Source of the DNA: Acidobacteriota bacterium
Lineage (GTDB): Bacteria; Acidobacteriota; UBA890; WLXD01
NCBI GenBank assembly: GCA_965205505.1
Contig: CBDBHB010000007.1
Location: forward strand, 32,001 to 96,000
Direction: 5' to 3'
DNA length: 64,000 bases
Part shown: in pieces, positions 17,230-53,113 of the stretch
How the letters are laid out: every line of letters starts with the position of its first letter
Numbering within the stretch: the stretch's first letter is position 1
The notes under the pieces: generated by a model
Told to the model about the DNA's origin: nothing
What the model saw: only the letters and a program-made list of their open reading frames with translations
Database searches by the model: none
Program-made: the position numbers and the translations under genes

Positions 17230-18264
17230 GTGACCAGCGCGCGTTTGCTTGGCCGCGATGGGTTCCTTCAGGCGTTACACCTGGAAGACGCGGCCTCCGA
17301 ACACACGCTGCGAGCCTATCGAACCGACCTCGACCAGTTCGCCACTTTCCTATGGGCGTGGGAATCGGGAAAGGAAGCCGACTACCGTGGCAACGCGACC
17401 GGCCGGCAGACGAGCGACGGCCGCCGCGTGTCCGCAGCGGCGATCACCGCTGCTTCGGTACGCGCCTGGGCAGCCCGCATGCACGCGGCGCGACTGTCGC
17501 CGGTTACGGTCGGACGGAAGCTGGCCGCAGTCCGCTCCTTCGCCAGCTACCTGTGTCGCGAGGGAGTTCTGACCATGAATCCGGCCCGCCAGGTGCACAA
17601 CCCCAAAGTGGCTCAACGATCGCCGGCCTTCCTCACCGAGGGCGAAGTCACCAAATTGCTCGAGTTCGATGACGATTCAGCGCTCGGTGCACGCGATCGC
17701 GCCGTCCTGGAGTTGCTCTACGCGACCGGCCTGCGAGTGAGCGAGCTGGCCGGGCTCGCGGTCGAGAATGTGGACGTGGCGGGACGCTCTCTGCGCGTCG
17801 TCGGCAAGGGCGACAAGGAGCGCATCGTTCCGTTCGGCAAGCCGGCGTCAGCCGCTCTGCGCGCCTGGCTACCGATTCGCCAGCAGTGGCTCGACAACCC
17901 GCCGAAGACGGCGCGAGGATCGGCCGAAGTGCGCACCGACGCCATGGGAGCTTTGTTCTTGAGTCAACATGGACGGCGCATCGACCCTGCCGCGTTGCGG
18001 CGGGTGTTAGCGCGCCGACTCGAGGAAGCCGCCCTCACGAAACGCGTTGCCCCACACGCCTTGCGACACTCGTTTGCGACCCATTTGCTCAATGCCGGTG
18101 CCGACCTGCGGGCCATCCAAGAGCTTCTGGGCCACGCGTCGCTCGCCTCTACACAGCGGTACACGCATTTGTCGACTCGTCAGCTGCAAGACGTCCATAG
18201 GCGCTCGCACCCGCGCGCTCGGCGACGCGACCCTAACGCCCGACAGACCCGCACGGGACGCTAG
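17230..18264 (+). CDS. xerC: Tyrosine recombinase XerC-like
   Basis: LLYATGLRVSEL, GKGDKER, HALRHSFATH, LLGH...TQRY; conserved trmFO-xerC-hslVU context. Confidence 0.9.
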   Translation: MTSARLLGRDGFLQALHLEDAASEHTLRAYRTDLDQFATFLWAWESGKEADYRGNATGRQTSDGRRVSAAAITAASVRAWAARMHAARLSPVTVGRKLAAVRSFASYLCREGVLTMNPARQVHNPKVAQRSPAFLTEGEVTKLLEFDDDSALGARDRAVLELLYATGLRVSELAGLAVENVDVAGRSLRVVGKGDKERIVPFGKPASAALRAWLPIRQQWLDNPPKTARGSAEVRTDAMGALFLSQHGRRIDPAALRRVLARRLEEAALTKRVAPHALRHSFATHLLNAGADLRAIQELLGHASLASTQRYTHLSTRQLQDVHRRSHPRARRRDPNARQTRTGR

Positions 18265-18323
18265 TGCTCCTCTAGCAGGGTGCTGAAGAACTCTGCTAAC
18301 AGAGGTTTGTTGCGGGCCACTAG
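18261..18323. repeat. Stack of CTAG-delimited element-end remnants
   Basis: CTAG at 18261, 18272 and 18320; CTAGCAGGGTGCTGAAGAA end and an AACAGAGGTTTGTTGC-GGGCCACTAG fragment resembling the MITE TIR. Confidence 0.55.
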
Positions 18324-18595
18324 TGGCCTGTAACAGATGATCGTTGCGTATCGTGGTGGCGAAATGGGTCCGGATGCCAGGCGCGACGACGAGACGATGT
18401 TTGCCCATCTTCGAGGAGGAGCAACGCCGCAGACGGGCCGATTTCGCCGCCATCCTCCGGACAGATGGGCAGTTGCGGGCGATATCGGCGTTGCGCCTCG
18501 TCGACGATACCCACTGCATCGCCTTCCTCTCCGCGCCTTGAGCTTGCCCCCATCTCGTCCCAGCAATATGCAACGAACCTCTGACTCAGGCCACT
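18320..18595. mobile_element. MITE copy A (~278 bp, CTAG-bounded; right CTAG split by the IS110-family insertion)
   Basis: Left TIR CTAGTGGCCTGTAACAGATGATCGTTGCGTATCG; diverged right TIR CAATATGCAACGAACCTCTGACTCAGGCCACT; body nearly identical to 52835-53113. Confidence 0.88.
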
Positions 18596-18609
18596 TCTAT
18601 GAGAAGGCC

Positions 18610-18855
18610 TAGTTCGGTCAAGGGCAATGTGGTGGCCAGCGAAGAATCGATCTGCACGCCATGCTCCTATTCGCACTCTGGTGGACGAGGATTCAGGTCG
18701 TCCGGTGCATTCTGGGGTCCGTCCCGATTCGAGGCGCTGCAATCTAGCTGCCGAGCTCGAAGCTCGTAGTGACCTTCGCAGTCGCCCGGACCGGGCGGTC
18801 AGATCGATAACCGTTGGGTCGCGTCGCCCTACCGACCTCCTGGTTGCGGGTTAGT
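18610..18855 (-). ncRNA. Putative bridge/seek RNA of the IS1111-group element
   Basis: ~250-nt non-coding end downstream of the transposase; ATCGATCTG/CAGATCGAT closing stem, CGCCCGG/CCGGGCG hairpin, and a 10x10 internal loop whose strands match the target site. Confidence 0.75.
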
Positions 18856-19898
18856 TCATGCTGCTGAAACCTCTACAGGTGCGCGCAACGGTTCGTACTC
18901 GTCTCCACTCAGCCACAGTCGGTGCAGCACAACGGCGAGCTTACGGGCGACAGCAACTGCTGCCTTTTTGTTGCCATGAGGACCACCGCGTCCGGCCAGC
19001 TTGAGCCCCCAGCGTCTGAGCTCAGTATCGGGCCCGAAGGGGCCCAGGATGTAATGCGCCGAGCCCACCAACAGGCGTCGGAGCATTTTGTCGCCCGCCT
19101 TGGTTATTCGTAGCGCAGGGTCCTTGTCCCCCGACTGCCGTTTCTTCGGTCTCAGTCCCAGGTACGGGCCCACGGCTCTGGAGGTATTGAACCGCTCCGG
19201 CTCCTCGAGCGTCAGCACATACGCCAGTGCGGTCAGAGCTCCGACCCCGGCCACTTGCTGGAGCTGCTGTGTCTCCGGGTATCGCCCCTGGCACAGCTGC
19301 ACGATCTGACGCTCGTATTGCTGGATGTTGCCCGTCAGCATGGCGATCGTTTCAAGCACCGGCTCGAGCGCTCCCTTGAGCCGCTCCGGTATGTGCTCTG
19401 GCGCGGTGCGCGCGAACGCCGGCGTCGAGCACCTGGGAATACGACAACCGGCCGACTTGACCGCACCACGCACATGGCTCACCAACTGCGTGCAGCTCTT
19501 TACCAGAGCATCTCGGCTCCGAATCACGGCTAGATCCGCTCGCGCTTGTCTGCCTCGATGCTGCACCGTCTTAAGCAGCTTTGGGTCCATTCTGCCCACT
19601 CGTGCCAGGTGCTCGGCATCCAACCGGTCGGTCCGTGCTCGCCATAGATCAGCTTCAGCCGCCTCGGGTTAGCCACCAGCACCTCATGACCCAGTTGCTT
19701 CAACTGCTCACTCATCCACGGCGAGTGCGTTCCAACCTCCAGCACTACTCGAGCGGGCTCCTCGCACCCGAACCGCCTCGCCAGCCCCTCCGGGCTCGTC
19801 CTCACCCGCCCTTCCTCCATCACCCTGCCCTTACTGTCGAGCACGCACATACGGCTGTACCGGTCGCTTACGTCCAGTCCAATCGTTACACTTGTCAT
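18856..19898 (-). pseudogene. IS110 family transposase/recombinase, frameshifted near 19635
   Basis: ORF 19530-19898 carries IGLDVS and VVLEVG; the second frame resumes TDRLDA...GVGALTA...YLGLRPKKRQSG...ITKAGDKMLRRLL...VAVARKL. Confidence 0.9.
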
Positions 19899-19899
19899 C

Positions 19900-19983
19900 G
19901 GCCAACCTCCTTGGGCTTCGAGCCCGTTACGTTTGAAGAAACGTTTGCAGAGCCGTCAGGCTACTGCGTTCAGGAGGTTGGCC
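19900..19983 (-). promoter_or_regulatory. 12-bp inverted repeat able to sequester the transposase Shine-Dalgarno
   Basis: GGCCAACCTCCT (19900-19911) / AGGAGGTTGGCC (19972-19983); on the mRNA the 3' arm contains AGGAGG just before the ATG. Confidence 0.7.
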
Positions 19984-20070
19984 TTCTCATCTCATCTAGC
20001 AGTCACGGGGTCCACCGCGGCGACGCCGGCGGCGAGACACTGGAGCGGACCCGCAGCCGCAGACGCGCCT

Positions 20071-20079
20071 TGCTACAAT
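20071..20079 (+). promoter_or_regulatory. Putative extended -10 promoter (TGcTACAAT) for hslV, possibly leaderless
   Basis: TGCTACAAT ends 6 nt before ATG 20086; no SD visible. Confidence 0.55.
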
Positions 20080-20085
20080 CGACGC

Positions 20086-20631
20086 ATGACGAGTCGGTTC
20101 CACAGCACCACGATCTGCTGCGTGCGGCGCGGCGCTCAGGTCGCCATGGGCGGTGATGGTCAAGTGACGCTCGAGCACACGATCATGAAGGCCGGCGCCC
20201 GCAAGGTTCGCCGCATGTACAACAACATGGTATTGGCAGGCTTCGCCGGCTCGGCCGCCGACGGCCTGGCGCTGTTCACCCGCTTCGAGGGGAAGCTCGA
20301 GAGCTTCAATGGGAACCTGCGACGCGCCGCCGTAGAGCTGAGCAGCGACTGGAGAACCGAAAAGAGTCTTCGGCATCTTCAGGCACTGCTCGTCGTCGCC
20401 GACGCCGAGACATCGATCCTCTTGTCCGGTACCGGCGACGTCATCGAGCCAGATGACGGAATCCTGGTAATCGGCTCAGGTGGCTCGGTGGCCCTCGCCG
20501 CCGCCCGCGCGCTCATCGCCCACACCGAGCTCGACTCCGAGTCTGTCGTACGAGAGGCGTTGTTGATCGCGGCGAGCATCGACATCTACACGAACGAGAA
20601 AATTCGGGTCGAAGTGCTGGAGGCACGATGA
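20086..20631 (+). CDS. hslV: ATP-dependent protease subunit HslV
   Basis: HSTTICCV...GDGQVT...GFAGSAAD...IGSGG...IDIYTN. Confidence 0.96.
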
Positions 20632-20689
20632 GGACGCAGAACCGTCGCAGCGTTAAGTCAGCCGGGCCGCCGGCGAGCAGCTGGTAGAT

Positions 20690-22081
20690 ATGGCGATTTC
20701 ACTTCCCGAGAAGCTCGAACCCAACGCCGGCGAAGTCGGCGAGCTCACGCCGAGACAGATCGTGGAGCTACTCGACAGGTATGTCATCGGACAGCGAGCC
20801 GCCAAACGGGCGGTTGCCATCGCCATCCGCAATCGCTTCCGTCGATTGCGGCTGCCAGCCGATCTGGCCGACGAAGTGGCGCCCAAGAACATACTCATGA
20901 TCGGCCCGACCGGCGTCGGCAAGACCGAGATATCCAGGCGGTTGTCGCGGTTGACCGGCTCGCCATTTCTCAAAGTCGAGGCGACCAAGTTCACCGAAGT
21001 CGGTTATGTCGGTCGTGACGTCGAATCGATGGTACGAGATCTGCTCGATATAGCCATCGAGATGGGGCGACAGGAGCATGCGGTGGAGGTCGAAGCCCGG
21101 GGGCGACGGCAAGCCGAGGACCGCTTGCTCGACGTGCTGCTGCCGCCGGTACCAATCGCTCGGACGGCGGGCAAAGACACCGACGCGACGCGACGCGCCA
21201 CGCGGGAGAAAATCCGTGCCCAACTACTCGCCGGCGCCCTCGACGACCGCATGGTGGAAGTGGACGTTCCCGACAACCGCTCACCGTCGTTCCAGGTATT
21301 CACCGGCCAGGGTAGCGACACGATGGACGTTAGCCTGAAAGACATGTTGCCGGGCGTGTTCGGTGGCGGGCGTGGCGCCACGAAGCAGCGTCGCATGTCG
21401 GTACCGGAGGCGCTGGAACACCTCACTCGAGAGGCCTCCGACGCGCTCATCGACGAAGACGAAGTAATTCGCGAGGCGCTCCAGAGGGCCGAGTCGTCGG
21501 GCATCATCTTTCTAGACGAGATCGACAAGATCGCCGGGCGGGAGGGATCGCGAGGCCCGGAGGTGTCGCGCGAGGGAGTACAGCGCGACATCCTGCCGAT
21601 CGTCGAGGGCACGGTGGTGAAGACCCGCAACGGCATGATTCGCACCGATCACATACTTTTCCTTGCCGCCGGCGCGTTTCACGTCTCCAAGCCGAGCGAT
21701 CTCATCCCCGAGCTGCAGGGCCGTTTCCCACTGCGGGTGGAGCTCGACGCGCTTGGCCGCGACGATCTGGTACGCATTCTCACCGAGCCGGAGAACTCGC
21801 TGGTGCGGCAGTACTGTGCGTTGCTCGAAACCGAGGGTGTGCACGTCGAGTTCACCGATGACGCGATCGAGGCCATCGCCGAGTTAGCGGAGACGGTCAA
21901 CGAGCGCACAGAGAACATCGGCGCGCGACGACTACACACGATGATGGAGCGTGTGGTGGAGGAGTTGTCGTTCGAAGCACCCGAGCGAAGCGGCGAATCG
22001 ATAACGATCGACGCTGCCTACGTGCACGACGCGCTTGCCGATATCGTCAAGGACGAAGACTTGTCGAAGTACATCCTGTGA
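20690..22081 (+). CDS. hslU: ATP-dependent protease ATPase subunit HslU
   Basis: [53 protein letters not shown]. Confidence 0.97.
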
Positions 22082-52811: not shown

Positions 52812-52838
52812 CTAGTGTCCTGTAACAGAGGGCACTAG
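52812..52838. repeat. 27-bp collapsed MITE (two TIR tips joined)
   Basis: CTAGTGTCCTGTAACAGA-GGGCACTAG, sharing its CTAG with MITE copy B. Confidence 0.65.
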
Positions 52839-53113
52839 TGACCTGTAACAGATGATCGTTGCATATCGTGGTGGCGAAATGGGTCCGGATGCCAGGCGCG
52901 ACGACGAGACGATGTTTGCCCATCGTCGAGGAGGAGCAACGCCGCAGACGGGCCGATTTCGCCGCCATCCTCCGGACAGATGGGCAGTTGCGGGCGATAT
53001 CGGCGTTGCGCCTCGTCGACGATGCCCACTGCATCGCCTTCCTCGCCGCGCCTTGATCTCACCCGCAAATCCCATCTGCGATATGCAACGATCATCTGTT
53101 ACAGGGCAACTAG
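52835..53113. mobile_element. MITE copy B (279 bp, CTAG at both ends)
   Basis: 27-bp perfect inverted repeat CCTGTAACAGATGATCGTTGCATATCG inside CTAG ends; body nearly identical to copy A; no transposase. Confidence 0.9.

What the first reader, a model, noticed from the sequence alone, without database searches (positions are those of the whole stretch)
18737..18781. Readable target-binding loop: guide strands match the MITE end
Seen on the - strand: CUGCGA-[AGGUCACUAC]-GAGC-UUCGA-GCUC-[GGCAGCUAGA]-UUGCAG, i.e. stem, symmetric 10x10 loop, hairpin. AGGTCACTA is identical to the TIR of MITE copy B (52836-52844, reverse strand) and 8/9 to the occupied site AGGCCACTA, where the mismatch would be a G-U wobble. 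GGCAGCTAG matches the opposite strand of the site (GACTGCTAG) at 7/9, including GCTAG across the core. This is the left/right target-guide layout of bridge RNAs and predicts a target of about AGGYCACTAGC. It could be a new programmable recombinase.
Basis: partly seen in the sequence, partly recalled or inferred. Interest (0 to 1): 0.85.

Follow-up and report, generated by a model that had tools for sequence, protein, structure and literature searches.

The report
Guide RNA loop of an IS1111-type element
The hairpin is the target-reading loop of the guide RNA of a jumping gene from the known IS110/IS1111 family, which uses it to insert next to the ends of a small repeat scattered through this genome, so it is a new member of a known kind.

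Summary

The hairpin lies in the 3' non-coding region of a 1402-bp IS110-family element of the IS1111 type. It has 11-bp subterminal inverted repeats and its long non-coding region is downstream of the transposase gene. The genome holds about 30 copies.

A covariance model of the stem-loop hits 76 of 83 sources, once each, downstream of the transposase gene. The stems keep pairing through compensatory changes while the loops vary. The loops covary with each element's own flanks. In the non-redundant set the 3' arm matches the left flank at 4.26 of 6 positions against 1.49 for other elements' flanks. The 5' arm matches the right flank at 5.65 of 7 against 3.89. None of 10,000 permutations reached either value.

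In this genome all 31 right ends abut TGGCCT or TGACCT and none abuts TGTCCT. Occupancy rises with left-flank match. The target is CT-AG-TGRCCT, the junction between a MITE inverted repeat and its CTAG flank.

A second module carries a donor guide that agrees with the right end in 59 of 59 elements.

This is the seekRNA/bridge RNA layout published in 2024. The window's own copy has a frameshifted transposase.

The parts
18594..19995 (-). IS1111-type insertion sequence, 1402 bp counted with one copy of the AG core. The left end ATGAGATGAG starts at 19995 and the right end ...CTCATAGA-AG stops at 18594.
   Evidence: Boundaries come from 30 left and 31 right junctions of the genome's copies. The conserved ends in 80 metagenome homologs agree.
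19996..19997 (-). Left copy of the AG core. It is the AG of the flanking CTAG at 19999-19996.
   Evidence: AG precedes ATG(A/G)GATGAG in the genome's copies and in the homologs.
19980..19990 (-). Left subterminal inverted repeat, ATGAGAAGGCC.
   Evidence: Read. Conserved in the homologs.
18599..18609 (-). Right subterminal inverted repeat, GGCCTTCTCAT.
   Evidence: Read. Conserved in the homologs.
18856..19898 (-). Transposase gene, broken in this copy into ORFs 19898-19530 and 19623-18856 by a 4-nt deletion at about 19633. The intact form is 348 aa (P0001).
   Evidence: Contigs of runs X1, X4 and X16 carry the 4 nt.
18727..18791 (-). Target-binding module of the guide RNA: outer helix, bulged A, helix CUGCG/UGCAG, two-arm internal loop and apical hairpin. 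The finding (18737-18781) lies inside it.
   Evidence: Model R1 scores 72.2 bits here and this is its only hit in the window.
18767..18775 (-). 5' arm of the loop, AGGUCACUA. [quoted passage not shown] CUA could also pair with TAG.
18742..18751 (-). 3' arm of the loop, GCAGCU-AG-AU. It has the same sense as left target + AG core + the first two bases of the element, so it is complementary to the bottom strand.
18664..18671 (-). Left-donor guide AAUAGGAG, just 3' of the conserved helix UGCAC (18709-18705) / GUGCG (18676-18672). It has the same sense as the right end CATAGA-AG, with one G for A.
   Evidence: Alignment. The R position of the right end and of this segment agree in 59 of 59 elements.
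18713..18720 (-). Tentative right-donor guide region, GGACCCCA.
   Evidence: One position agrees with the left end in 25 of 33 elements. The window's own copy is discordant there. GGAC may instead pair with GUCC at 18791-18788.
18587..18593 (-). Right target TGGCCTG, the first bases of the MITE inverted repeat.
18324..18593 (-). MITE of about 270 bp with terminal inverted repeats (TGGCCTG...CAGGCCA), flanked by CTAG (far side at 18323-18320).
52835..52844 (+). Unoccupied MITE end CTAGTGACCT. Its right half pairs perfectly with the 5' arm.

Best explanation
The hairpin is the target-binding loop of the seekRNA/bridge RNA encoded in the 3' non-coding region of an IS1111-type, IS110-family insertion sequence.

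Inferred mechanism, by analogy with the published systems: the RNA binds the element's DEDD transposase. The 5' arm of the loop (AGGUCA, possibly extended by CUA) pairs with the top strand to the right of the AG core. The 3' arm (GCAGCU-AG) pairs with the bottom strand to the left of the core and across it. A second module (AAUAGGAG, and less surely GGACCCCA) reads the element's own ends. Recombination at the AG core then inserts the circular element.

Shown here: the structure is conserved through compensatory changes. Both loop arms change together with the flanks in relatives. In this genome the insertion sites follow the guide, including tolerance of a G-U pair, exclusion of a U-T mismatch, and a graded effect of left-flank match.

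Not shown: that the RNA is made, that it binds the protein, or that changing the loop changes the target.

The natural target is CT-AG-TGRCCT, the junction between the inverted repeat of a ~270-bp MITE and its CTAG flank.
For: Protein: NF033542 'IS110 family RNA-guided transposase' at 205.5 bits against a cutoff of 140. Pfam PF02371 and a sub-threshold PF01548 match on the two ORF pieces.

Element: 28 full-length copies, 10 of them with an intact 348-aa ORF. The subterminal inverted repeats are 11 bp. The non-coding region is about 260 nt downstream of the gene and about 100 nt upstream.

RNA structure: model R1 hits 76 of 83 sources, once each, on the transposase strand. On that alignment 87.6% of cells pair against 79.4% in shuffles, 114 cells have changes on both sides against 30.5, and 0 of 500 shuffles reach the observed values. 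Helix 1 is 95.5% paired and 5 of its 10 pairs show compensatory changes.

Guide covariation. In the non-redundant set, an element's own left flank matches its 3' arm at 4.26 of 6 positions against 1.49 for other elements' flanks (19 loci). Its own right flank matches the 5' arm at 5.65 of 7 against 3.89 (20 loci). None of 10,000 permutations reaches either value. The full set of 34 and 37 loci gives the same result.

This genome: 31 of 31 right ends abut TGGCCT (30) or TGACCT (1). Among the 217 unoccupied CTAG-flanked pattern hits, 75 are TGGCCT, 59 TGTCCT and 2 TGACCT. Fisher's test on G/A against T gives p = 3.6e-7.

Occupancy by the number of contiguous core-proximal left-flank matches (occupied / unoccupied): 0 matches 1/220, 1 match 1/67, 2 matches 18/88, 3 matches 5/21, 4 matches 4/0.

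The loop module is identical in 30 of 31 copies.

Donor guide: 59 of 59 elements agree between the right end and the segment after GUGCG, including the single CATGGCAG/AATGGCAG pair in L063.

Literature: in IS1111-type seekRNAs the top-strand match lies 5' of the bottom-strand match and the two overlap in the target (PMC11187229, section 9). Bridge RNAs are predicted in the right end of IS1111 elements (PMC11208160, passages).
Against: No direct evidence of the RNA. Contigs of two metatranscriptome libraries from one study cover the element, but contigs cannot show transcription or RNA ends. No sigma-70-like promoter was found. Rfam has no match here.

The left-target guide fits this genome's sites poorly. 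The mean is 1.83 of 5 matches at positions -7 to -3, and no occupied site matches more than 4 contiguous bases.

The CU that follows the right-target guide is not conserved in relatives.

The right-donor guide is weak. The window's own copy is discordant at the tested position.

The fold energy alone is unremarkable (z = -1.6 and -1.9).

The homologs are related to each other and the genome's copies include duplicated flanks, so the p-values overstate independence.
Confidence: 0.9

Rival explanations
1. An ordinary hairpin after the transposase gene, such as an mRNA-stabilising or terminator-like structure, whose loop resembles the insertion site by chance.
For: The fold z-scores are weak. In this one copy the matches are only 8 of 9 and 7 of 9.
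Against: The loops change with the flanks across relatives, and 0 of 10,000 permutations reach the observed match. Site occupancy in the genome follows the guide. No T-run follows the hairpin: the one terminator-like site found, at 19912-19926 (+), is not at the finding.
Confidence: 0.03
2. The transposase protein, not the RNA, recognises the MITE end, for example its inverted repeat as a structure. On this reading the loop match is a relic of captured target DNA.
For: 24 of 31 right ends continue into a recognisable MITE repeat. The left guide fits poorly.
Against: Seven of 31 right ends keep only TGGCCT plus 0-3 bases and then diverge from the MITE, so a short sequence is enough. MITE ends with TGTCCT are never used (0 against 59 available). 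Relatives with other loops sit in unrelated sequences. The family is experimentally RNA-guided (PMC11187229 abstract and section 9).
Confidence: 0.04
3. The loop is a working guide, but it reads the flanks of the resident copy for excision (donor-flank recognition) rather than choosing new targets.
For: The 3' arm continues as AG-AU, which matches the occupied left junction (AG-AT of the element) and not the empty site (AG-TG). Siddiquee et al. had to change the seekRNA and the donor flank together (abstract).
Against: This adds to target choice rather than excluding it. About 30 insertions at sites sharing the guide-matched bases show that targets are chosen.
Confidence: 0.03

Closest known systems
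IS1111-type elements with seekRNA (ISEc11, ISPa11, ISKpn4, ISPst6; Siddiquee et al. 2024, PMC11187229)
   Same: DEDD transposase of about 340-350 aa with the GL-P----SG motif (YLGLRPKKRQSG in P0001). Subterminal inverted repeats. Long non-coding region downstream of the gene. Guide RNA whose top-strand match lies 5' of the bottom-strand match, with the two overlapping at the insertion point.
   Different: The guide and target sequences differ. I could not measure protein identity to those elements because no sequences were at hand. The best annotated plasmid relatives are at most 36.7% identical. Nothing here was tested at the bench.
IS621 bridge RNA (IS110 group; Durrant et al. 2024, PMC11208160; PDB 8wt6)
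   Same: A two-arm internal loop reads both strands of the target around a core dinucleotide, and a second module reads the element's ends. There is weak sequence similarity to the IS621 and ISCro4 transposases (E = 6e-8 and 6e-9 over residues 188-340).
   Different: [quoted passage not shown] Here the RNA is in the right end and the arm order is reversed. The core here is AG. The donor-reading bases flank a helix rather than sitting in a simple internal loop, as Durrant et al. note for many IS1111 orthologues.
[quoted passage not shown]
   Same: An IS1111/IS110-family element specialised on the repeat ends of other repeated or mobile DNA. I saw only titles in the reference list of PMC11208160 and the ISPpu9 abstract in the listing.
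   Different: The target here is the junction of a small non-autonomous MITE and its CTAG flank. I read none of those papers beyond title or abstract.

Membership tests
IS110 family transposase (NCBIfam NF033542; Pfam PF01548 + PF02371) | The protein matches the family models above their cutoffs. | tested here: met
   The intact copy P0001 scores 205.5 bits against a cutoff of 140. The window's C-terminal ORF scores 63 bits on PF02371 against 21.3. Its N-terminal ORF scores 26.6 bits on PF01548, below the cutoff of 29, because it is truncated by the frameshift.
IS110 family transposase (NCBIfam NF033542; Pfam PF01548 + PF02371) | Conserved catalytic acidic residues in the N-terminal domain and the SG of the G--P----SG motif. 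| tested here: met
   In 40 aligned homologs E54, D92, D95 and G258 are invariant, and D9 and S257 are at least 90% conserved. The motif reads GLRPKKRQSG. Which residues make up the DEDD tetrad is my inference, not a structural test.
IS1111 group | Subterminal inverted repeats of 7-17 bp. | tested here: met
   ATGAGAAGGCC at 19990-19980 and GGCCTTCTCAT at 18609-18599, 11 bp each, set in from the ends by 5 and 5 bases. Conserved in the homologs. The definition is from PMC11208160.
IS1111 group | The long non-coding region lies downstream of the transposase gene. | tested here: met
   About 260 nt downstream (18855-18594) against about 100 nt upstream (19995-19899). The criterion is from PMC11187229, section 6.
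IS1111 group | Transposase related over its full length to that of IS1111. | not tested
seekRNA / bridge RNA | Conserved secondary structure with variable internal-loop arms. | tested here: met
seekRNA / bridge RNA | Loop arms complementary to opposite strands of the target on either side of a core, and covarying with the target. | tested here: met
   across homologs. within the genome.
seekRNA / bridge RNA | Donor-binding segments that match the element's ends. | tested here: inconclusive
   The left-donor guide is clear (59 of 59 concordant). The right-donor guide is weak (25 of 33, and the window copy is discordant).
seekRNA / bridge RNA | The RNA is expressed, binds the transposase, and is needed and sufficient to set the target. 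| not testable with these tools
   Only contigs of RNA libraries were available.

The most novel reading that the evidence does not exclude
This element is a specialised parasite of another mobile element. Its guide reads the junction that exists only where the MITE's inverted repeat meets its CTAG flank, so every MITE end is a landing pad.

The roughly 30 natural insertions also show that a six-base right-target pairing (tolerating G-U but not U-T), plus the core and only two to four left-target bases, is enough in vivo. That would be a natural map of how little pairing an IS1111-type recombinase needs, which bears on off-target rules for engineered bridge recombinases.
Probability: 0.45. Interest if true: 0.5.

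Novelty: new member of a known kind. Interest (0 to 1): 0.35.

Why it matters
It confirms that a guide loop can be read straight from raw sequence and its target predicted correctly.

The element adds an unstudied clade to the RNA-guided IS110/IS1111 recombinases. Homologs are 48-71% identical, and 590 of 599 candidate stretches in soil and sediment metagenomes encode relatives. Identity to annotated plasmid copies is below 40%.

The genome also offers a natural specificity data set for such recombinases: about 30 occupied sites against several hundred unoccupied near-cognate sites.

It does not open a new mechanism.

Tried and rejected
Rfam: the only match in 17500-21000 was mir-639 at E = 5, which I treat as noise. 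Nothing matched at the finding. This means no match to a curated family, not absence of an RNA.

A single-protein scan of genome contigs gave one relative at 43% identity. It was too distant to use, apart from the model hit in L031.

Relatives' genomes: 0 of 4 same-genus genomes and 10 of 60 other genomes had a match at E <= 1e-20, none above 68% identity. No empty site could therefore be recovered from a sister genome. That tally includes the unpublished genome G047. No other claim here rests on G047, and its locus L039 was not used.

The promoter scan found no sigma-70-like site. This says little for an organism whose promoters may differ.

Read laying: no circle junction and no empty site was seen in the contigs of four runs. 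The two RNA-library runs cover the element but cannot show transcription.

A first regex for the stem-loop missed most homologs because their apical hairpins vary in length. I replaced it with a looser anchor and then with a covariance model.

In the covariation counts, 46 of the 81 sources examined (window + L062-L141) had a stem-loop caught by the regex. Of those, 34 had a usable left flank and 37 a usable right flank. The rest were dropped because the contig ended or the junction motif was not found. The non-redundant set of 25 was made by a greedy filter on guide similarity.

I considered that the CUA after AGGUCA pairs with TAG. Relatives do not conserve a core complement at that place, so I leave this open.

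I considered the conserved TTGAC at 18621-18617 as the -35 box of a junction promoter. It was not tested.

I could not see the supplementary tables of PMC11208160 and PMC11187229. They list predicted bridge RNAs and targets of ISfinder elements and may already hold a near relative. I ran no search to show that this element is unnamed in print, and ISfinder was not available.

An earlier count said 11 of 28 copies are intact. The count is 10 of 28.

Full report
**What is at the coordinates.** On the - strand, 18781-18737 reads CTGCGA-AGGTCACTAC-GAGC-TTCGA-GCTC-GGCAGCTAGA-TTGCAG. The fold of 18790-18730 gives the outer stem and the apical hairpin. Its energy is not unusual (z = -1.6; the whole 274-nt non-coding region has z = -1.9).
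- TAGTGACCT at 52836-52844;
- AGGCCACTA at 18329-18321 on the - strand;
- GACTGCTAG at 20004-19996 on the - strand.

**Context.** The hairpin lies about 75 nt after the stop codon of an IS110-family transposase gene on the - strand. In the window the gene is split into two ORFs, 19898-19530 and 19623-18856. They match PF01548 (26.6 bits, below the cutoff) and PF02371 (63 bits).

The genome holds 33 BLAST pieces of the element, 28 of them full length. Ten of the 28 encode an intact 348-aa protein. That protein, P0001, scores 205.5 bits on NF033542, 'IS110 family RNA-guided transposase'.

Twelve of the 28 copies, the window's among them, share one 4-nt deletion that shifts the frame. Five share another 1-nt deletion. 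Contigs of three public runs carry the undeleted form.

**Boundaries and target.** The 30 left and 31 right junctions show a variable flank, then CT-AG, then ATGAGATGAG on the left. On the right they show ...CTCATAGA-AG followed by TGGCCT. The element is therefore 1402 bp (19995-18594) with an AG core on each side. It has 11-bp subterminal inverted repeats and a long 3' non-coding region. This is the IS1111-type layout (PMC11187229, section 6; PMC11208160, passages).

In 24 of 31 cases the right flank continues as the inverted repeat of a ~270-bp MITE. The MITE's ends are nearly always preceded by CTAG. In the window the MITE is 18593-18324, with CTAG again at 18323-18320.

**Is the loop a guide? 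Relatives.** A protein search found thousands of homologs. A metagenome scan with an alignment of 40 of them (A1) returned 80 loci at 48-71% identity. Their 3' non-coding regions hold the same stem-loop: CTGCG, a variable arm, a hairpin of variable length, a variable arm ending in AG-A(T), then TGCAG.

A covariance model built from 12 of them hit 76 of 83 sources, once each, on the transposase strand. In six of the seven misses the contig ends within 178 nt of the stop codon.

On the 76-row alignment the stems pair in 87.6% of cells, against 79.4% in shuffles and 29-48% when the partners are slid. There are 114 cells with changes on both sides against 30.5 in shuffles, and 0 of 500 shuffles reach the observed values. 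That alignment is fitted to the model, which favours the structure. The MAFFT alignment of 12 shows the same pattern.

The arms track each element's own flanks. Using a fixed register for the 3' arm and a sliding window for the 5' arm, applied alike to own and foreign flanks, the results were:

| Set | Arm and flank | Loci | Own flank | Other elements' flanks |
|---|---|---|---|---|
| Non-redundant | 3' arm vs left flank | 19 | 4.26 of 6 | 1.49 of 6 |
| Non-redundant | 5' arm vs right flank | 20 | 5.65 of 7 | 3.89 of 7 |
| All | 3' arm vs left flank | 34 | 4.68 of 6 | 1.96 of 6 |
| All | 5' arm vs right flank | 37 | 5.57 of 7 | 4.10 of 7 |

None of 10,000 permutations reached any of these four own-flank means.

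**Is the loop a guide? This genome.** The loop module is identical in 30 of 31 copies, so the copies test one guide against many sites.
- Right target: 30 of 31 right ends are TGGCCT and 1 is TGACCT. None is TGTCCT, although 59 of the 217 unoccupied CTAG-flanked pattern hits are TGTCCT, against 75 TGGCCT and 2 TGACCT (Fisher p = 3.6e-7). The guide base there is U. It pairs with A, wobbles with G and cannot pair with T.
- Left target: 27 of 29 left flanks end in CT.

Counting every AG-TGRCCT in the genome, occupancy rises with the run of core-proximal matches to GGCAGCT:

| Contiguous matches | Occupied | Unoccupied |
|---|---|---|
| 0 | 1 | 220 |
| 1 | 1 | 67 |
| 2 | 18 | 88 |
| 3 | 5 | 21 |
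| 4 | 4 | 0 |

For 3 or more matches against fewer than 3, Fisher p = 4.9e-5.

Even so, the distal left-guide bases fit poorly, with a mean of 1.83 of 5 at positions -7 to -3. No site with five or more left matches exists in the genome. Some flanks are shared between copies, so the sites are not all independent.

**The rest of the RNA.** Downstream of the loop module the relatives share an invariant helix UGCAC/GUGCG around a variable hairpin. Directly after GUGCG comes (A/G)AT(A/G)GAAG. This repeats the element's right end, CAT(A/G)GA-AG. The A/G choice agrees in 59 of 59 elements (9 A-A, 50 G-G). The one element with CATGGCAG has AATGGCAG (L063). In the window this left-donor guide is AAUAGGAG (18671-18664), with one G where the end has A.

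A right-donor guide is less clear. One position of GGA(C/U)C(Y)CA agrees with the left end in 25 of 33 elements (p = 0.004, not independent). The window's copy disagrees, and GGAC may instead pair with the 5' GUCC. Durrant et al. note that many IS1111 orthologues carry their donor-binding bases in a multi-loop.

**Comparison with what is known.** Siddiquee et al. found that IS1111-type seekRNAs carry a top-strand match 5' of a bottom-strand match, that the two overlap in the target, and that the order is the reverse of the IS110 type (abstract and section 9). [quoted passage not shown] The window's loop has the IS1111 order.

The protein is only distantly similar to the solved IS621 and ISCro4 transposases. 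It is at most 36.7% identical to annotated plasmid copies.

So this is a new member of a known kind. I could not check ISfinder or the papers' supplements for a named relative.

**Verdict.** What remains inferred is expression, protein binding and programmability. The window's copy cannot make transposase, but it keeps an intact guide module and could be moved by the ten intact copies. Interest is moderate to low because the mechanism has been known since 2024. The natural specificity data, and the habit of landing on MITE/CTAG junctions, are the parts worth a follow-up.

Noticed in passing
window 19633 (- strand gene); genome copies: Twelve of 28 full-length copies at different loci share the same 4-nt frameshifting deletion, and five share a 1-nt deletion. 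Other SNPs are distributed in a mosaic pattern. Defective copies have therefore either been moved in trans or homogenised by gene conversion.
   Followed up: partly
window 18324-18593 and genome-wide: There is a large MITE population. 242 unoccupied matches to the repeat-end motif were found (up to 2 mismatches allowed, so some are chance hits), nearly all preceded by CTAG. There are two main repeat types (TGGCCTGTAACAGATGATCG... and TGTCCTG(TAACAG/AGTCAG)AGG...). Only the first type is used by the IS. The CTAG flank looks like a target-site duplication. I did not look for the autonomous partner.
   Followed up: partly
window 52813-52850 (+): Two MITE ends lie in tandem: CTAGTGTCCTGTAACAGAGG followed by GCACTAGTGACCTGTAACAG. 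The second is one of only two CTAGTGACCT sites in the genome, and both are unoccupied.
   Followed up: partly
window 18617-18621 (- strand): TTGAC, about 25 nt before the right end, is conserved in nearly all aligned homologs. It could be the -35 box of a promoter completed when the ends join in a circle, as reviewed for this family (PMC13604230 passage). Not tested.
   Followed up: no
window 19933-22081 (+): The IS sits just upstream of two + strand ORFs (19933-20631 and 20690-22081). From memory they look like hslV and hslU. No family search was run on them.
   Followed up: no
G000 C6:423088 / C6:513835; C6:11743 / C6:191370; C7:9909 / C6:424503 / C9:1326058 / C9:1598968: Several IS copies share an identical flank on one side only. 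This suggests recombination between copies, or duplicated segments, or assembly duplicates.
   Followed up: no
G011:C1:3908161-3911885 (L033, L044): The closest relative in the searched genomes (63-68% identity) is split into two parts about 2.7 kb apart, so it appears to be interrupted. Its stem-loop is still found by the model at L033:2201-2265.
   Followed up: no
G000 C9:2702236: One copy has three ATGAG units at its left end instead of two.
   Followed up: no
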